DNA of 64,000 nucleotides from Laetmonice hystrix (taxonomy: Eukaryota), in assembly GCA_965235115.1 (NCBI GenBank), contig OZ249441.1, forward strand, positions 13,888,001 through 13,952,000. Direction: 5' to 3'. The position numbers were made by a program. Shown in pieces: positions 21,001 through 63,000 of the stretch (position 1 is its first letter; each line of letters starts with the position of its first letter).

Positions 21001-24000
21001 TAACCTACCCGACCTCAACGCTGAACCAAGCTGCTATAACAGTGGCGTCATCGTTCGCCATGCTGCCAGCAGGTGCGCGTGCGAATGCGCGTGCACCCCG
21101 GCGCATCTAGCTCTCCGTGAGCGAATACATAATTTCTGTGATGAATTCAAGATGTCTGCGCCTACGCCACCATCGTGATTGCGAACAAAATCACAATATC
21201 GTATCTGTCCGCCGCAGCTGGCCTCTGGTGCAGCGTTAACTCCATCACCATGGACCCACTCGGCTACGCCTTCCAGACACCCACTTGGACTCTCCGTCTG
21301 CGTTCTTTTCTCTCTCAGTTCCTGGATCTGTTCAGCGAATTCGGCGGCTACAACACACCGACCTACCGCCATGACCGATGCGAGAGGTAAGCGCGTTAAC
21401 TATGGACATCTTACACTACAATCCATTGTCAGCCTAACCATGCTTGGCCTATGCTATAGCCTATCTCGTCATACCAAACAAATGAGTAAGGCCTATAGAT
21501 TACCTTCATCAGACCGTATGATATAGGCCTATTGCCGGTTATAACCTATTATTTAGAAACCGCTCAATGGAGACATGCAAGAGACCTGCAAAATATGTGA
21601 CTCCAATAGCCTATAGATACTCAATGTCGGTGACATAATCTTGGTACAGGCCGATATAATAATAGGGGTCTATAGGCTACTATACTAGTACCATATAGGT
21701 AGTTCATAAATTGAGAATAGACCTAAAGTTATGCGGATTCCAAGGCTTTTTACCTGCATGGCTTTGCTTTAGAATTCGATTCCCTGTAAAGTCCCTTTAA
21801 CAACGATACCATATGGTAGGTTGGCCTAGGCTTACTACGCAATTGACATTGGCTAGCCGGCGCCAATAATTACCTTTAGGCCTATCAAGTAGCCTTTCCA
21901 GGGCCGGATCCATGATTTTTTCTTCTAGGGGGGGGGGGGGGGGGGTCCGAAATTATTATTTTATGAAAAATAGCCTATAACGTTTGTATACTTATCGCTT
22001 TAGATTCTAGATTCACACTGCATGTGGTTCCTGGGCTGGAGGACGAACATTTGACACCTTTGTTCCTTTTCTTTTCTTTTCTTTTTATTTCTAAGGGGGG
22101 GGGGGGGGTGCACCCCCCCCCCCTGGATTCGGCCCTGTTATCATGGCCAGGCAGGCTGTCAAAATACCCGGTAGTCGATTTTGAGAACCTTCAAATCGAG
22201 GTTGTAAAATAGGCCAACGGCTACACACACTGTCACTGACTTGGCGATCATGCAGTGCAAAAATTTTCCTAGTCCTAACGTTCTACACACGTAGGCCTAC
22301 GCCTATAGTATACGTAGCATGTCCAGGGTGCAGCCATAAGATTATTAAGAAATCAACAAGAATAAAATTAAGGGCTCGACGCGCAGGAGCGTGTCGGGGG
22401 GGGGGGGGGGGCAGTGGCGGATCCAGGATTTCAGAAGGGCGGGGGGCAACTTTTGTTGGATAAAAAGTGGCCCATTTTTGGGGGGTCTGGGGGCCCTCCA
22501 CCAGATCTTTTTTTTCAAGAATGTCGAAAACATGTTTTCTGAACATGTAGGCCTAGAGTAGAAATTTCTCCCAAATTCTTTAACGAAATTCCATTATTTT
22601 TAAGCATGAAACATAGAAAATAGGCAAGATTTTGGAAAATAGGGGGCGGGCCGGGTGCCCCCCTGCATCCGTCACTGGGGGCCGGGGGGGGGGGGGGGTC
22701 AGGGGTCGAACCCCCTTGGCTTGGATTGAGCTGGATAATGTGGATTGACGCGCGCCTTCGGCGCCTGTGCTTTTGTTTGACCACCACGGACAACGCGACC
22801 CCCTTGCGAGATAAAACAGCTCACACTGCATCAATCAATCTAGGACACTGCATAGGCATAGATCTAAACTCAGAAGTGACACAGACGTTATACGGGTGGC
22901 CTTCACATCAACAACACACAAGATATAGGCCTAACCGTGATTTGTGGCTTGCACACCCTGTCACATTGGTGACAGCTGTCATGATGTAAACGGATGTAAA
23001 CAAATGAACTTCCGCTGAGGCATGCGCAATGCACTCACCTTCTGCCAAACAGGAAACACGAAAGTACAGGGGTGTGGTGTCGAGGGTGTCAGGCCTAATG
23101 ATGCAGGAAGCCAGGCTATACGAAATTGAACCGTAAGTTAACTGTGAACATACCCATGTCAGTGCCTCACGTACCACAGAGGAAATAAAAGAGAGACTGC
23201 GGAGTCTTCGCGCCCTGGTCATTGATAATGAGCAAACTTGTAAAGTTGTAGGCCTAGTTCTCGACCCTCAGCCTCAGGCTCACTGCAGTCAGAGTTGACC
23301 GTGACCGTGCCCGAACGTGATCAGCGGCCGGTCGACCGGCCTCGGGACCGCGTATCTGGGCCGGGGTGGAGAGATACAGGCATGCCACCATTCATTATAA
23401 TAACCTGCCAACACACCCTGCACCTGCACAGTCAGGCCCTGACCTGCCAACAAAACCAACACACCCTGCCACATGTTAACAAGTCCTGTCTTGTGTGAGC
23501 CACATAATCCAAGTGTAAAGTGACATATATTGCTAAATCAAATATGTCAATGTAAAAAAAAAAATGTCAATGTAATACAAAAGAAACAACCAAACACAGG
23601 TCAGGAGATAAAGATTGTCATTGTCATTTATATATAATATGTGCCGTACTGTCGCGAAGCTAAATCATGTTTGGGAATTGGCATTTCAAATCAATATTAT
23701 ACTAGTACATGTATTTGTACTATTGTAGTATCAGGGACAGGGTAGCATGACCATGAGTCGCGCACCCAATTTAACACTGCATTGGTTTAGGCCAATCCCT
23801 TACAACTGATGTAATCTGAAAGCCCATTTTTTACTCTTTCTTGTGGTTCTTGAATTATCCACCAGAGGCCAGAACGGTTTTTATTTAGGGTGAGTGGATG
23901 ACTCAAGGTACGTGGGCAATGCTACTCTATAGTATAAGTAATTCAAGTAGGCCTAATTTGTAAAAACTGAGCAAAAGTAGGCCTACTGATTTGTCATTGT

Positions 24001-60000: not shown

Positions 60001-63000
60001 CAAGTGCAGGTAAGTTGTGCCATCCAGGAGGATATCCCCCACCACTGCCTCCTGTATGCAGCCTGCACGCACCTGTCTCCCGGGACTACACTAGTCGGCT
60101 TCTCCCAGCCCCCTGGCGGGCCAACTTTGTTCACTCACTTCAACATCCACTCCATGTGAACGGAGCACCATGGGGCACTGCTTGGAATGTGTGCTTCAGT
60201 GTGGGCAGTGTCGGTACCAGTCTGTGTATGCCACCTGGTGGTACGCCGTGGTACTACATGTGTTGAGGACAGGGTCGTCACTGCCTGATTGCACAAGCCA
60301 CTTGTTTAGAGCTGGGACATCGTGAACCCCCCCCCCCCCCCCCCCTTATGAAAATGAAAAGGCCGCGTTATCTAAAAGAGCACAGGTTTTCTTCCAGATG
60401 TGGAGTGAACTTTGAGTGCAGTTTTGACAAATGTTGCATATTGAGCTCAGAGAGACAATAATCATGGGTCCACTGGGACTGGTAACTTTATATGGCCCAG
60501 ACTGACATCCCTAGTTTGGTAAAACAGACGTTTGTAACTACTACAGGGTAACGGTGGCAGGATCAGGCAGGTACGTATAACCCTTGGCACCTCAGTGGCC
60601 TGAGAAACTCTAATCATATAACATGGCAGCACTAGTCAGGGCTTGAGTCAGGCGTTGAGGGCAGTTGGTGCTGGGACATGGGGCAGAACCCGGTGGTGTC
60701 TATGGGGCAGAACCCGGTGGTGTCTAACCCATAGCATGTTCAGTCAGGGTTTGTTAAATCTTGATGCCAGCCACTGACCGCATTTAATCACCGGTTCTCT
60801 TCCTCAAGTTGATGCAGATTTGATTGATTAGTGTGTGTCTATCTTGGGAAGAGATGTAATGGATGAACAGAGACAGAATGTCGCCTGGGATTGAGCTCTA
60901 GTGTACCTGTGTGGTGGTCCTGAGTCGCTCTGCCCAAAGGGACAGGCTATGACAACAGGGCCCAGATAGCTCTGAAGTAAACTCACTGCCTCTTTATTGG
61001 CTGGTCGAGGCCCAGGAGAACTTATCTTTAATGCCATTATTCTGTTTGTTTCCGGGTACACTGGTTTCTTCGACCAGTTATGCAGACCGCCTCGTTATAA
61101 TCCTGATTGTAGACAAGGTATCAAGTACAAAAGCACACACCATTACCAATCAAGTTTACCACACCACACACCATTACCAATCAAGTTTACCACACACCGA
61201 CATATATCGGAGGAATGCAGCCTTTTATTTATTTTTCAGGCGGGGAGTCTGAGCCATGTGAGGTGTAGACAAGAAACAGGTACTAGGCGTGGCACTTTGC
61301 CACTGACCTCCACTAGGCTTAAGAGTTTTGACTCTGCTAGACTGACATCGTTGTGTGATAATTAGATTAACATGTAGTTTGGAGGCAGGGTAACATTTTC
61401 TTTGTTTCTTGTGTGTTTTATGTGACTGTCCTGATTTCAGACTCCGTGACCCGTCTCTAGTTGGTCGAGGGTACACGAGAGGGTTGGTGTCTTGAGCTTT
61501 TGTGTGTTCTGGTTGTGGGCTGTGCAGGAACCTTGGGATTAAAGCATGAAGGGAATCCAGGTGGTGGTTTGCTCGATCTCAGAAATATGAGAAGTCATCA
61601 AGTGAAATTCGTAGATCTGGTTAAAATCTTTAGATGAAGACAGAAGAAAAACGTGCGGACGGGAATTGTGTTTTGGTCTAGGATACGGTTCTCCCAGTTT
61701 TGTGTGAGTGACCTGCGCAATGCTTTCTAAGTCACCAAATTAAAATATTCTGAAGATCCCAAAGATCAGGAATTGACGTATTGCTTGCTTGTACGACAGA
61801 CCGATTTGTCCGGTGTTTTTACATGTTTTGTCGTGGCTTATTGGTTTTCAGTTTTGGAAAGAAATGGAGTTGAAGTTTGAATGAAAATCACAAAATATTA
61901 TTACTATTGTGGCATGCCCAGTCGCGTATTAGAACTTTTGAAACATAGTCTTTGAATGCTGATGGTACCTTTTGAACGCTGGGCAGGTTCTGTATTGGAG
62001 TATCATGTTTCAGTGTAAAAGGTGAAAAGGTATAAAGGTTTGGACAAAACGTGTTAAAAGTAATGGGGTTTCTGGCCTAATCTCTTGGATCCCCTTTTCC
62101 AATCTCCCTCACCCATAGTCCCACATACTCTTCTGTAAGGCTTGTGAAATCTCTACTTGCTTTCCACCTACCCGCTTTGCTAATCTTTTACGTAAAGGTA
62201 GACTAAAAATGGTTCTACACAAATTAAACATTTTCTTTTTGTGTGCGTGTGAATATGTGTGTGAAGTATAAAACTGTATATGGTCACTTTATGGTAAACA
62301 GAATTATGGGCATATTTGTTTATAGGTTCTATCCTTTATTACCTTATTGCAGTTCATATCATTTTAAATATATATAATGTGATTATTGATGCCATCCAAA
62401 GTGTGCATACTGTACGATTTAAAGGTTACTGTTTACTATGTTATGCAGACTTTAGTTTTAGGAAAGACAAAACAATATGTCACATGAATGTGTTTTGTGC
62501 TTTTTCAGATGAGACATCTTCCACGTCGTCTAGCACCACTTTGACGTCGGCAGCAGTGCCTCCCAATCGGCTGCCCCCGCTGATTCCACCTCCCCCACCA
62601 TCCTCCTCATCCACGTCCACTTACTTCACGGACGCCCCTACGCCTTCTCCCCAACCACTTGCTGACTCTCTCAACTCGCCCAGTCAGCTTCCACCGGTCA
62701 ATATCAGCCTGATGGCCATGCCACCACCACCGCCACCCCCTGTCGGACACTACCACCACGGCCAGGGCCAAGGTGGGCCGTACCAGGACCACGGCTTGCC
62801 GGCCGGCGCCTACCACACGGCCGGTCAGAACAAAGCCTACCGCGACCGTGGCTCACCGCCGCCCACCACCGCCTTTCACAAGCAGAGTTCAGTATGACCC
62901 ACGGCCCCCAGGTGTGCATCCAAGGCCGCCATGCAGTACGAGGAAATACCAAACCGCCCCTCCAAAACACACTGCCTATCCAAGCCGACAGAGGAGGGTA

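What the first reader, a model, noticed from the sequence alone, without database searches (positions are those of the whole stretch)
21250..62897. TMEM181, TMEM242 and ZDHHC14-like genes clustered within 42 kb, echoing human 6q25.3
Seen: gene order TMEM181(+), PCNP(-), TMEM242(+), ZDHHC14-like(+). Established knowledge (recalled): human TMEM242 lies next to ZDHHC14, with TMEM181 about a megabase away at 6q25.3, while PCNP is on chromosome 3. Inference: an ancient bilaterian microsyntenic block of functionally unrelated genes. Orientation differs (tandem here, divergent in human), so linkage rather than a shared promoter would be what is conserved.
Basis: partly seen in the sequence, partly recalled or inferred. 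Interest (0 to 1): 0.65.

Follow-up and report, generated by a model that had tools for sequence, protein, structure and literature searches.

The report
Four-gene neighbourhood echoing human 6q25.3
An animal genome carries TMEM181, PCNP, TMEM242 and a ZDHHC9/14/18-type palmitoyltransferase gene side by side, and the TMEM242-ZDHHC pairing matches the one in mammals, most likely as an ordinary inherited relic of ancestral gene order.

Summary
Four genes lie at 21250-62897 in the stated order and orientation: TMEM181(+), PCNP(-), TMEM242(+), then a DHHC palmitoyltransferase(+). Each was identified exon by exon with Pfam and PDB.

The mammalian side is supported by papers. Human 6q25.3 reads ARID1B, TMEM242(-), ZDHHC14(+), SNX9, SYNJ2, SERAC1, GTF2H5. 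In cattle, TMEM181 lies in the same 1-Mb window as ZDHHC14. PCNP is at 3q12.3.

- The DHHC gene belongs to the ZDHHC9/14/18 subfamily. No ZDHHC14 or ZDHHC18 sequence was available, so it cannot be placed within that subfamily.
- ARID1A-PIGV-ZDHHC18 parallels ARID1B-TMEM242-ZDHHC14. This suggests the window gene is the undivided forerunner of the vertebrate copies.
- Its predicted C-terminus ends in S-S-V, a type-I PDZ ligand otherwise specific to ZDHHC14.
- TMEM181 is on the other side of the pair than in mammals, and five genes away there, so only TMEM242-ZDHHC is true microsynteny.
- "Bilaterian" is untested: the window's taxon is unknown and no other invertebrate genome could be searched.

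This is a new example of a well-known kind of feature. Interest is modest.

The parts
21250..30907 (+). TMEM181 homologue. 12 coding exons: 21250-21386, 24011-24114, 24353-24420, 24690-24780, 25032-25156, 26970-27089, 27606-27705, 27962-28089, 29522-29671, 29887-29989, 30181-30405, 30837-30904. Stop at 30905-30907. 473 codons.
   Evidence: TMEM181_GOLD PF21885 is covered by three exons (profile 1-30, 31-70, 68-108; E 3.6e-7, 6.5e-4, 1.5e-12). WLS-like_TM PF06664 is covered by five exons. 11 of 11 introns are GT-AG and phases are coherent. The best PDB hit of exon 11 is Wntless, a distant match (0.0024). Exons 1, 2, 3 and 12 rest on splice logic only.
35825..37989 (-). PCNP homologue, known part. 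A large open exon runs 37989 down to 37129; then 36789-36721, a 56-nt microexon 36317-36262, and the last exon 35960-35828. Stop at 35827-35825. The ATG-bearing 5' exon was not found.
   Evidence: The last exon hits PF15473 PCNP at 7.7e-14, profile 121-155 of 155. The microexon and the 36789-36721 exon resemble recalled human PCNP by eye. 3 of 3 introns are GT-AG and phase-coherent. The 291-codon ORF itself has no Pfam hit.
40425..41636 (+). TMEM242 (DUF1358) homologue. 3 coding exons: 40425-40628, 40840-40971, 41493-41633. Stop at 41634-41636. 159 codons.
   Evidence: PF07096 DUF1358 at 4.9e-6 and 7.7e-17. 2 of 2 introns are GT-AG. The last exon was assigned by eye and by phase. No PDB relative.
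44648..62897 (+). ZDHHC9/14/18-subfamily palmitoyltransferase gene. 9 coding exons: 44648-44916, 51140-51300, 52117-52275, 52477-52614, 55126 (or 55129)-55292, 55502-55611, 56118-56265, 57065-57203, 62509-62894. Stop at 62895-62897. 559 codons.
   Evidence: DHHC PF01529 on exons 3, 4 and 5. Human ZDHHC9 (8hf3_A) is the best PDB hit for exon 4 (1.5e-19, ahead of ZDHHC5 and ZDHHC20). It is the only hit for exon 1 (1.2e-16) and for exon 6 (9.1e-7). 8 of 8 introns are GT-AG and phase-coherent.
52477..52614 (+). Catalytic exon carrying the D-H-H-C motif.
   Evidence: This is the only DHHC tetrapeptide in the six-frame translation of the window. PF01529 at 3e-16.
55502..55611 (+). Exon with the subfamily's C-terminal cysteine motif.
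   Evidence: It aligns to ZDHHC9 residues 260-293. The equivalents of Cys283 and Cys288 are kept, and the Cys284 position is Leu. The motif is defined in PMC10076531 (passages).
62509..62897 (+). Predicted last exon: a Ser/Thr/Pro-rich tail ending in S-S-V, a type-I PDZ-ligand pattern.
   Evidence: The acceptor is phase-compatible with the strong donor at 57203. There is no transcript evidence. The region is open in several frames. Pfam and the Atlas give nothing. The S-S-V end matches the LSSV end of vertebrate ZDHHC14 (PMC7685708 passages).
41637..44647 (.). 3.0-kb spacer between the TMEM242 stop and the DHHC gene ATG. It is CpG-rich and is the likely DHHC promoter region.
   Evidence: CpG observed/expected is 0.76-1.03 in the 1-kb bins from 41001 to 45000, against 0.19-0.6 in the flanking gene bodies. 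The promoter role is inferred.

Best explanation
The stretch is an ordinary compact gene neighbourhood of an animal genome, most probably an invertebrate. It holds four unrelated housekeeping-type genes. The adjacency of TMEM242 and the DHHC gene was most likely inherited from the common ancestor shared with vertebrates. There, a single ZDHHC9/14/18 forerunner lay next to TMEM242, and probably near an ARID1 gene. After the vertebrate genome duplications, the copy that became ZDHHC14 kept TMEM242 as its neighbour. TMEM181 belonged to the same chromosomal neighbourhood and has stayed within about a megabase in mammals, although small inversions and insertions have changed order and orientation on both lineages. 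I take the retention to be mainly passive, meaning slow rearrangement over short distances rather than a shared function or promoter.

Shown: gene identities, order, strands, and the mammalian arrangement.
Inferred: common ancestry of the linkage, forerunner status of the DHHC gene, and passive retention.
For: Mammalian arrangement:
- Human order is ARID1B, TMEM242 (antisense), ZDHHC14 (sense), SNX9, SYNJ2, SERAC1, GTF2H5 (PMC8591803; PMC11837999).
- One 1-Mb cattle interval holds ZDHHC14, SNX9, SYNJ2, SERAC1, GTF2H5, TULP4, TMEM181, DYNLT1 and SYTL3 (PMC11927911).

Duplication history:
- ARID1A, PIGV and ZDHHC18 lie within about 300 kb in human (PMC6444755). The horse order is SFN, ZDHHC18, PIGV, ARID1A (PMC6617995).
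- ARID1-ZDHHC linkage therefore exists twice, as expected if it predates the vertebrate duplications.
- Fly app is described as most similar to DHHC9/14/18 together (bioRxiv 2021.12.06.471463).

Other support:
- The predicted protein ends in S-S-V. [quoted passage not shown] The single Ciona gene, labelled ZDHHC9, also has one (PMC7685708; preprint figure-supplement legend).
- The chance of the pair plus a third gene in one window is 1e-6 to 7e-4 (my assumptions).
- Hundreds of such pairs are known: 595 conserved ancestral microsyntenic pairs (PMC3514665). Inherited adjacency is therefore the default reading.
- For passive retention: the orientation of TMEM242 relative to the DHHC gene differs between the window and human. 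PCNP is interleaved here but not in mammals. TMEM181 sits on opposite sides. None of the four is a developmental regulator, by established knowledge of their functions.
Against: - Only two lineages are compared, and the window's taxon is unknown, so the age of the linkage cannot be dated.
- If the window came from a chordate, the linkage would be no older than chordates.
- No gene tree was possible, so the forerunner status of the DHHC gene rests on paralogy of neighbourhoods and on one sentence about fly app.
- Under a null that keeps chromosome-scale linkage groups, a genome-wide scan would produce up to a few such triples by chance.
- In ray-finned fishes tmem242 is listed among the neighbours of lgals8 (PMC10343441 table). 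This shows the neighbourhood is not fixed in all vertebrates, although the table does not say whether zdhhc14 is also there.
- The last exon, and hence the S-S-V end, has no transcript support.
- Passive retention is a default, not a tested result.
Confidence: 0.6

Rival explanations
1. Selected regulatory block. The genes stay together because regulatory DNA for one of them, or for a neighbour such as ARID1, lies within or beside another. Breaks between them would then be harmful, as in a genomic regulatory block or a shared chromatin domain.
For: Irimia et al. attribute many conserved pairs to co-regulation or to enhancers inside bystander genes (PMC3514665 abstract and passages). Such constraints do not depend on orientation, so they survive the orientation difference seen here. 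The same ARID1-x-ZDHHC arrangement is kept in two human paralogous regions. An ultraconserved enhancer exists in the human neighbourhood, although it lies inside ARID1B itself (PMC11837999).
Against: None of the four genes in the window is a developmental transcription factor or signalling gene. The introns here are short (0.1-6.2 kb). 0 of 10 intronic or flanking ORFs reached a Pfam cut-off, and there were no Rfam hits. No ARID1 gene is in the window. PCNP has been inserted or removed between TMEM181 and TMEM242 without dispersing them. Conserved non-coding sequence could not be tested.
Confidence: 0.2
2. Chance co-location. The genes came together independently in this lineage and in mammals, or they merely share an ancestral chromosome and happen to lie close in both.
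For: If only chromosome-scale linkage is conserved and order is random, a scan of 5000 four-gene windows would give 30-60 adjacent pairs and 0.8-3.4 pair-plus-third coincidences. The first-stage scan read many windows. TMEM181 is five genes from ZDHHC14 in mammals and on the other side. Three vertebrate paralogues triple the opportunity for a match.
Against: For this single window the probability is 1e-6 to 7e-4. The matching paralogue is the one whose distinctive C-terminal PDZ ligand the window's gene also carries. The chance of an S-S-V ending is about 3e-4. The ARID1-ZDHHC parallel in two human regions shows that this neighbourhood is old.
Confidence: 0.12
3. The window is from a compact vertebrate genome or is a mis-assembly, so the resemblance to 6q25.3 is trivial or artefactual.
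For: The taxon is unknown. One assembly gap or masked run lies in the window at 19598-19792.
Against: The N run lies outside the four genes. CpG observed/expected is mosaic: 0.6-1.16 over 1-23 kb, 0.2-0.5 in gene bodies, and about 1.0 upstream of the DHHC gene. By established knowledge this pattern is typical of invertebrates and not of globally methylated vertebrate genomes. Exons 1 and 4 of the DHHC gene are only about 63-64% identical to human ZDHHC9 (my count from the alignments). The PCNP N-terminal ORF has no Pfam match. All 22 introns of the four models have consistent phases across the region.
Confidence: 0.04

Closest known systems
Conserved ancestral microsyntenic pairs (CAMPs) of Irimia et al. 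2012, Genome Res 22:2356 (PMC3514665)
   Same: Two unrelated genes, TMEM242 and a ZDHHC gene, are adjacent here with no gene between them and adjacent in human, and tandem duplication does not explain this.
   Different: The CAMP definition needs linkage in at least four major animal lineages, and only two are documented here. The paper's main text contains no ZDHHC, ARID1, C6orf35 or KIAA1423. Its gene lists are in supplements that I could not open, so the pair may already be catalogued.
Human 6q25.3 segment ARID1B-TMEM242-ZDHHC14-SNX9-SYNJ2-SERAC1-GTF2H5-TULP4-TMEM181
   Same: It contains TMEM242 next to a ZDHHC9/14/18-family gene, with TMEM181 nearby.
   Different: - Here the span is 42 kb rather than about 1.2 Mb (the human distance is recalled).
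- TMEM242 is tandem with the DHHC gene, not divergent.
- TMEM181 is on the TMEM242 side.
- PCNP (human 3q12.3) is interleaved.
- None of SNX9, SYNJ2, SERAC1, GTF2H5, TULP4 or ARID1 was found in the window.
Vertebrate ZDHHC14 (type-I PDZ ligand LSSV; Sanders et al. 2020, PMC7685708)
   Same: It is a DHHC9-subfamily enzyme with a long C-terminal tail predicted to end in S-S-V, and it is a neighbour of TMEM242.
   Different: Orthology to ZDHHC14 specifically is untested. The residue before S-S-V is Gln, not Leu. The tail is predicted from genomic DNA only.
Human ZDHHC9 in complex with GCP16 (PDB 8hf3)
   Same: It is the best or only solved relative of exons 1, 4 and 6. The DHHC motif and two of the three C-terminal motif cysteines are conserved.
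   Different: About 63-64% identity in the aligned exons. The Cys284 equivalent is Leu. The predicted protein has 559 codons, against a 372-residue chain in the entry.

Membership tests
Conserved ancestral microsyntenic pair (Irimia et al. 2012) | [quoted passage not shown] | tested here: met
   The TMEM242 stop at 41636 and the DHHC ATG at 44648 are 3.0 kb apart, with no recognisable gene between them. In human, no protein-coding gene is listed between TMEM242 and ZDHHC14.
Conserved ancestral microsyntenic pair (Irimia et al. 2012) | The genes are not paralogues, so the pair did not arise by tandem duplication. | tested here: met
   The Pfam families differ: DUF1358 and DHHC.
Conserved ancestral microsyntenic pair (Irimia et al. 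2012) | Linkage is conserved in at least four major metazoan lineages. | not testable with these tools
   No eukaryotic genome collection was available. Only this window and mammals are documented.
Conserved ancestral microsyntenic pair (Irimia et al. 2012), applied to TMEM181 with TMEM242 or ZDHHC14 | [quoted passage not shown] | tested here: not met
   In mammals SNX9, SYNJ2, SERAC1, GTF2H5 and TULP4 lie between ZDHHC14 and TMEM181. That is five genes, or six counted from TMEM242.
Genomic regulatory block | A developmental regulator gene plus bystander gene(s) whose introns hold conserved non-coding enhancers. | tested here: inconclusive
   None of the four genes is a developmental regulator (established knowledge). 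Conserved non-coding elements could not be searched. Introns are 6.2 kb or shorter.
ZDHHC9/14/18 (DHHC9) subfamily | DHHC cysteine-rich catalytic domain. | tested here: met
   PF01529 at 3e-16 on the exon with the D-H-H-C motif.
ZDHHC9/14/18 (DHHC9) subfamily | Subfamily-specific N-terminal region and C-terminal cysteine motif (Cys283, Cys284, Cys288 of DHHC9). | tested here: met
   Exon 1 hits ZDHHC9 alone in the PDB (1.2e-16). Exon 6 also hits ZDHHC9 alone (9.1e-7). Two of the three cysteines are kept, including the Cys288 equivalent. The motif is defined in PMC10076531. That motif is also shared with DHHC5 and DHHC8, and ZDHHC5 scored lower on the DHHC exon (1.1e-13 against 1.5e-19).
ZDHHC14 orthologue specifically | Groups with ZDHHC14 rather than ZDHHC9 or ZDHHC18 in a gene tree. 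| not testable with these tools
ZDHHC14 orthologue specifically | [quoted passage not shown] | tested here: met
   The predicted last exon ends in S-S-V. This is a prediction from DNA only. The criterion comes from PMC7685708.
TMEM181 | TMEM181-type GOLD domain followed by a Wntless-like transmembrane domain. | tested here: met
   PF21885 is covered at profile positions 1-108 of 111 by three exons. PF06664 is covered at positions 24-247 of 247 by five exons.
TMEM242 (DUF1358) | Match to PF07096 above the curated cut-off. | tested here: met
   26.9 and 61.7 bits against a cut-off of 23.4.
PCNP | Match to PF15473 above the curated cut-off. | tested here: met
   53 bits against a cut-off of 27 on the last exon. 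The N-terminal ORF has no match.

The most novel reading that the evidence does not exclude
The block is a selected unit of bilaterian genome architecture. An ARID1-TMEM242-ZDHHC neighbourhood, with TMEM181 in the same chromatin domain, would have been held together since before the protostome-deuterostome split by regulatory DNA shared across the genes. In addition, the undivided ZDHHC9/14/18 enzyme would already have carried the type-I PDZ ligand outside chordates. Recruitment of this palmitoyltransferase by Dlg/PSD-95-type scaffolds would then be older than the 'simple chordates and vertebrates' origin proposed by Sanders et al. 2020.
Probability: 0.1. Interest if true: 0.55.

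Novelty: new member of a known kind. Interest (0 to 1): 0.3.

Why it matters
Conserved gene neighbourhoods help to assign orthology after the vertebrate genome duplications. Here the TMEM242 neighbour and the S-S-V ending both point to ZDHHC14 as the vertebrate copy that kept the ancestral context and C-terminus. That bears on how ZDHHC9, 14 and 18 divided their roles.

If the window comes from a non-chordate, the PDZ-ligand observation would move the origin of scaffold-guided palmitoylation earlier than published.

The block itself is otherwise one more example among several hundred known conserved pairs. 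It does not open a new question.

Tried and rejected
- Rfam at gathering thresholds gave 0 matches and ARAGORN gave 0 tRNAs over the whole window. This gave no RNA genes and no clue to the taxon.
- The Atlas search with the last DHHC exon gave no usable hit.
- The Atlas search with the acidic ORF 17834-18727 gave a best score of 0.83, to arthropod 'neuropeptide precursor' clusters. That is below the level the tool treats as evidence.
- Pfam on ten ORFs in the DHHC introns and 3' flank: 0 of 10 reached a curated cut-off, and two had weak hits at E 0.011 and 0.027. I found no nested gene.
- Pfam on ten ORFs between 25.6 and 28.3 kb found one more TMEM181 exon. Eight had no hit and one had only a weak one at E 0.15.
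- The PDB search with a TMEM242 exon found no relative.
- The sigma-70 promoter and terminator scan of 37900-40500 is a bacterial model and says nothing about an animal promoter. I disregard it.
- The repeat finder at 60 nt or longer found only two small direct-repeat families. It did not capture the G-run/C-run element that I saw by eye in translations.
- Literature searches:
  - No paper holds TMEM242, ZDHHC14 and TMEM181 together.
  - One paper holds TMEM181 and TMEM242, and it is unrelated.
  - Of 12 papers with at least two of TMEM242, ZDHHC14 and microsynteny, none links ZDHHC14 with microsynteny. One table lists tmem242 beside fish lgals8.
  - Two broader searches were swamped by unrelated synteny papers, with 20 of 951 and 30 of 668 listed. 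They do not support a claim of absence.
- PMC5359973 (passages) gave nothing on ZDHHC9/14/18 history.
- I considered a missing small exon between DHHC exons 4 and 5. I rejected it once a phase-compatible acceptor at 55126/55129 was found.

Full report
**What is in the window.**
The window is animal DNA with G+C of about 0.35-0.49. It has one N run at 19598-19792, which lies outside the finding and which I left alone. I do not take the contig for human. Four genes that span more than a megabase and two chromosomes in human are packed into 42 kb here. CpG depletion is mosaic. The DHHC exons are only about 63-64% identical to human ZDHHC9 (my count from the alignments).

**How the genes were identified.**
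There is therefore no full-length domain score, no fold and no gene tree of the models. This limits the conclusions as stated below.

**TMEM181 (21250-30907, + strand).**
- In one search, 7 of 10 ORFs matched TMEM181-type families. Two matched TMEM181_GOLD (3.6e-7 and 6.5e-4). Five matched the Wntless-like transmembrane domain (7.4e-6 to 1.5e-14).
- The first and last exons had no match, and one ORF had only a noise hit.
- A second round found the third GOLD exon in 1 of 10 ORFs (1.5e-12).
- The GOLD profile is covered at positions 1-108 of 111. The transmembrane profile is covered at positions 24-247 of 247.
- My model has 12 exons and 473 codons, and 11 of 11 introns are GT-AG with coherent phases.
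- The nearest solved structure is Wntless, a distant match (0.0024).

**PCNP (35825-37989, - strand).**
- The last exon matches PF15473 at 7.7e-14.
- A 56-nt microexon and the exon before it resemble human PCNP by eye. The human sequence is recalled, not tested.
- The 291-codon upstream ORF is open but has no Pfam match and no ATG near its start. The first exon is unresolved.

**TMEM242 (40425-41636, + strand).**
- Two exons match DUF1358 (4.9e-6 and 7.7e-17).
- The model has three exons and 159 codons.

**The DHHC gene (44648-62897, + strand).**
- Three exons match PF01529. One of them is below the curated cut-off.
- The catalytic exon's best solved relative is human ZDHHC9 (1.5e-19), ahead of ZDHHC5 (1.1e-13), ZDHHC20 (about 1e-9) and yeast Erf2 (3.8e-8), among 8 distinct sequences matched.
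- Exon 1 and exon 6 each hit ZDHHC9 and nothing else (1.2e-16 and 9.1e-7).
- Exon 6 carries the subfamily's C-terminal cysteine motif. The equivalents of Cys283 and Cys288 are kept and Cys284 is replaced by Leu (alignment; motif from PMC10076531, abstract and passages).
- The nine-exon model has 559 codons, and 8 of 8 introns are GT-AG.

**Arrangement of the four genes.**
- TMEM181 and PCNP are tail to tail, 4.9 kb apart.
- PCNP and TMEM242 are head to head, at most 2.4 kb apart.
- TMEM242 and the DHHC gene are in tandem, 3.0 kb apart.
- That 3.0-kb spacer has CpG observed/expected near 1.0, while the gene bodies are at 0.2-0.5. I read it as the DHHC promoter region.
- I found no other recognisable gene inside the interval. 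0 of 10 intronic or flanking ORFs reached a Pfam cut-off, and there were no Rfam or tRNA hits.

**The mammalian side.** From passages, not whole papers:
- A 6q25.3 deletion contains ARID1B, TMEM242, ZDHHC14, SNX9, SYNJ2, SERAC1 and GTF2H5. TMEM242 and SERAC1 are on the antisense strand and the others on the sense strand (PMC8591803).
- The same neighbours are listed in a figure legend of PMC11837999.
- A 1-Mb cattle interval holds ZDHHC14, SNX9, SYNJ2, SERAC1, GTF2H5, TULP4, TMEM181, DYNLT1 and SYTL3 (PMC11927911 table row).
- The mouse region is described as well preserved in human (PMC9789398).
- PCNP is at 3q12.3 (PMC3337547 table row).
The figure of about 1.2 Mb between TMEM242 and TMEM181 in human is my recollection and comes from no call.

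**What the comparison does and does not show.**
- TMEM242 and a ZDHHC9/14/18-family gene are immediate neighbours in both genomes, in tandem here and divergent in human.
- TMEM181 is not collinear. It lies beyond TMEM242 here, but beyond ZDHHC14 in mammals, with five genes between.
- Under the criterion of four or fewer intervening genes used by Irimia et al. (PMC3514665), only the pair qualifies.
- My rough chance estimates (all inputs are round-number assumptions) give 1e-6 to 7e-4 for one window. Under the stricter null of conserved linkage groups with random internal order, a 5000-window scan would produce up to 3.4 such triples.
- The pair is hard to ascribe to chance. The TMEM181 part is suggestive only.

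**Which ZDHHC gene is it?**
- Sequence places the gene in the DHHC9 subfamily and no further.
- Three indirect lines bear on the question:
  1. ARID1A, PIGV and ZDHHC18 lie together in human and horse. They mirror ARID1B-TMEM242-ZDHHC14, as expected if one ancestral ARID1-ZDHHC neighbourhood was duplicated.
  2. Fly app is called most similar to DHHC9/14/18 jointly (bioRxiv 2021.12.06.471463 passage).
  3. The predicted protein ends in S-S-V. [quoted passage not shown] They also state that the ligand is first seen in Ciona and vertebrates (PMC7685708 passages). Their invertebrate sample was Ciona, fly and worm (preprint figure-supplement legend).
- I therefore read the window's gene as the undivided forerunner, with ZDHHC14 keeping both its neighbour and its C-terminus.
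- The S-S-V end depends on one predicted splice, 57203 to 62509. It is phase-compatible and has a strong donor, but there is no RNA evidence. The region is open in several frames, and the Atlas found nothing for the tail.

**Why the genes are together.**
- My preferred reading is passive inheritance of an old neighbourhood.
- Orientation, order and the interleaved PCNP all differ between the two genomes.
- No gene here is a developmental regulator, and the introns are short.
- A regulatory-block explanation is not excluded, because conserved non-coding DNA and chromatin contacts could not be examined.

**What stayed unchecked.**
- Other invertebrate genomes.
- A ZDHHC tree.
- The species of the contig.
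- The supplementary gene-pair lists of the microsynteny surveys, where this pair may already appear.
- Transcript support for all four models.

**Verdict.**
This is a new example of a known kind of feature, of modest interest.

Noticed in passing
window 3-3371 (+): A 1123-codon ORF, open at the window's 5' edge, encodes a BEL/Pao-type retrotransposon polyprotein. Pfam hits are Peptidase_A17 (1.2e-48), integrase zinc-binding domain (4e-10) and DUF5641 (2.4e-28).
   Followed up: partly
window 17191-17766 and 17834-18727 (+): Two adjacent long ORFs encode a very acidic protein with several dibasic sites. There is no Pfam hit. The Atlas's nearest clusters are arthropod 'neuropeptide precursor' or prohormone-like, at 0.83, which is a lead only. 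CpG observed/expected here is about 1.0-1.16, unlike the depleted gene bodies downstream.
   Followed up: partly
window 1-64000, 1-kb bins: The CpG observed/expected profile is mosaic: 0.6-1.16 across 1-23 kb, 0.19-0.6 inside TMEM181, PCNP, TMEM242 and the DHHC gene, and about 1.0 at 41-45 kb. This fits gene-body methylation of broadly expressed genes in an invertebrate (inference).
   Followed up: partly
window 55120-55130 (+): Exon 5 of the DHHC gene has two phase-compatible AG acceptors three bases apart, giving exon starts at 55126 and 55129. This is a tandem-acceptor arrangement that would add or drop one codon.
   Followed up: no
window 55502-55611 (+): In the C-terminal cysteine motif needed for GCP16 binding in human DHHC9, the Cys284 position is Leu, while the Cys283 and Cys288 equivalents are kept.
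   Followed up: partly
window 37117-38018 (-): The PCNP upstream exon is a 291-codon ORF without an early ATG. It overlaps a 183-codon ORF in another frame of the same strand and several ORFs on the opposite strand. The region is poor in stop codons in many frames, so ORF length alone is weak evidence of coding there.
   Followed up: no
window 16343-16731, 22185-22986, 39237-39953, 47205-47357 and others: Dispersed pieces with long G runs and C runs translate as Gly- or Pro-rich strings that look alike by eye. They include a 76-nt unit in 2.0 tandem copies at 47205-47357. This is probably a short interspersed repeat family; it was not characterised.
   Followed up: no
window 19598-19975: The N run at 19598-19792 abuts an AGGC/AGGCAGGCAGGG-type microsatellite at 19793-19975. 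The N run was left untouched.
   Followed up: no
window 37990-40424: PCNP and TMEM242 are head to head, with at most 2.4 kb between their known coding parts. A shared bidirectional promoter is possible but untested. The only scan I ran there was a bacterial consensus scan and is not informative.
   Followed up: no
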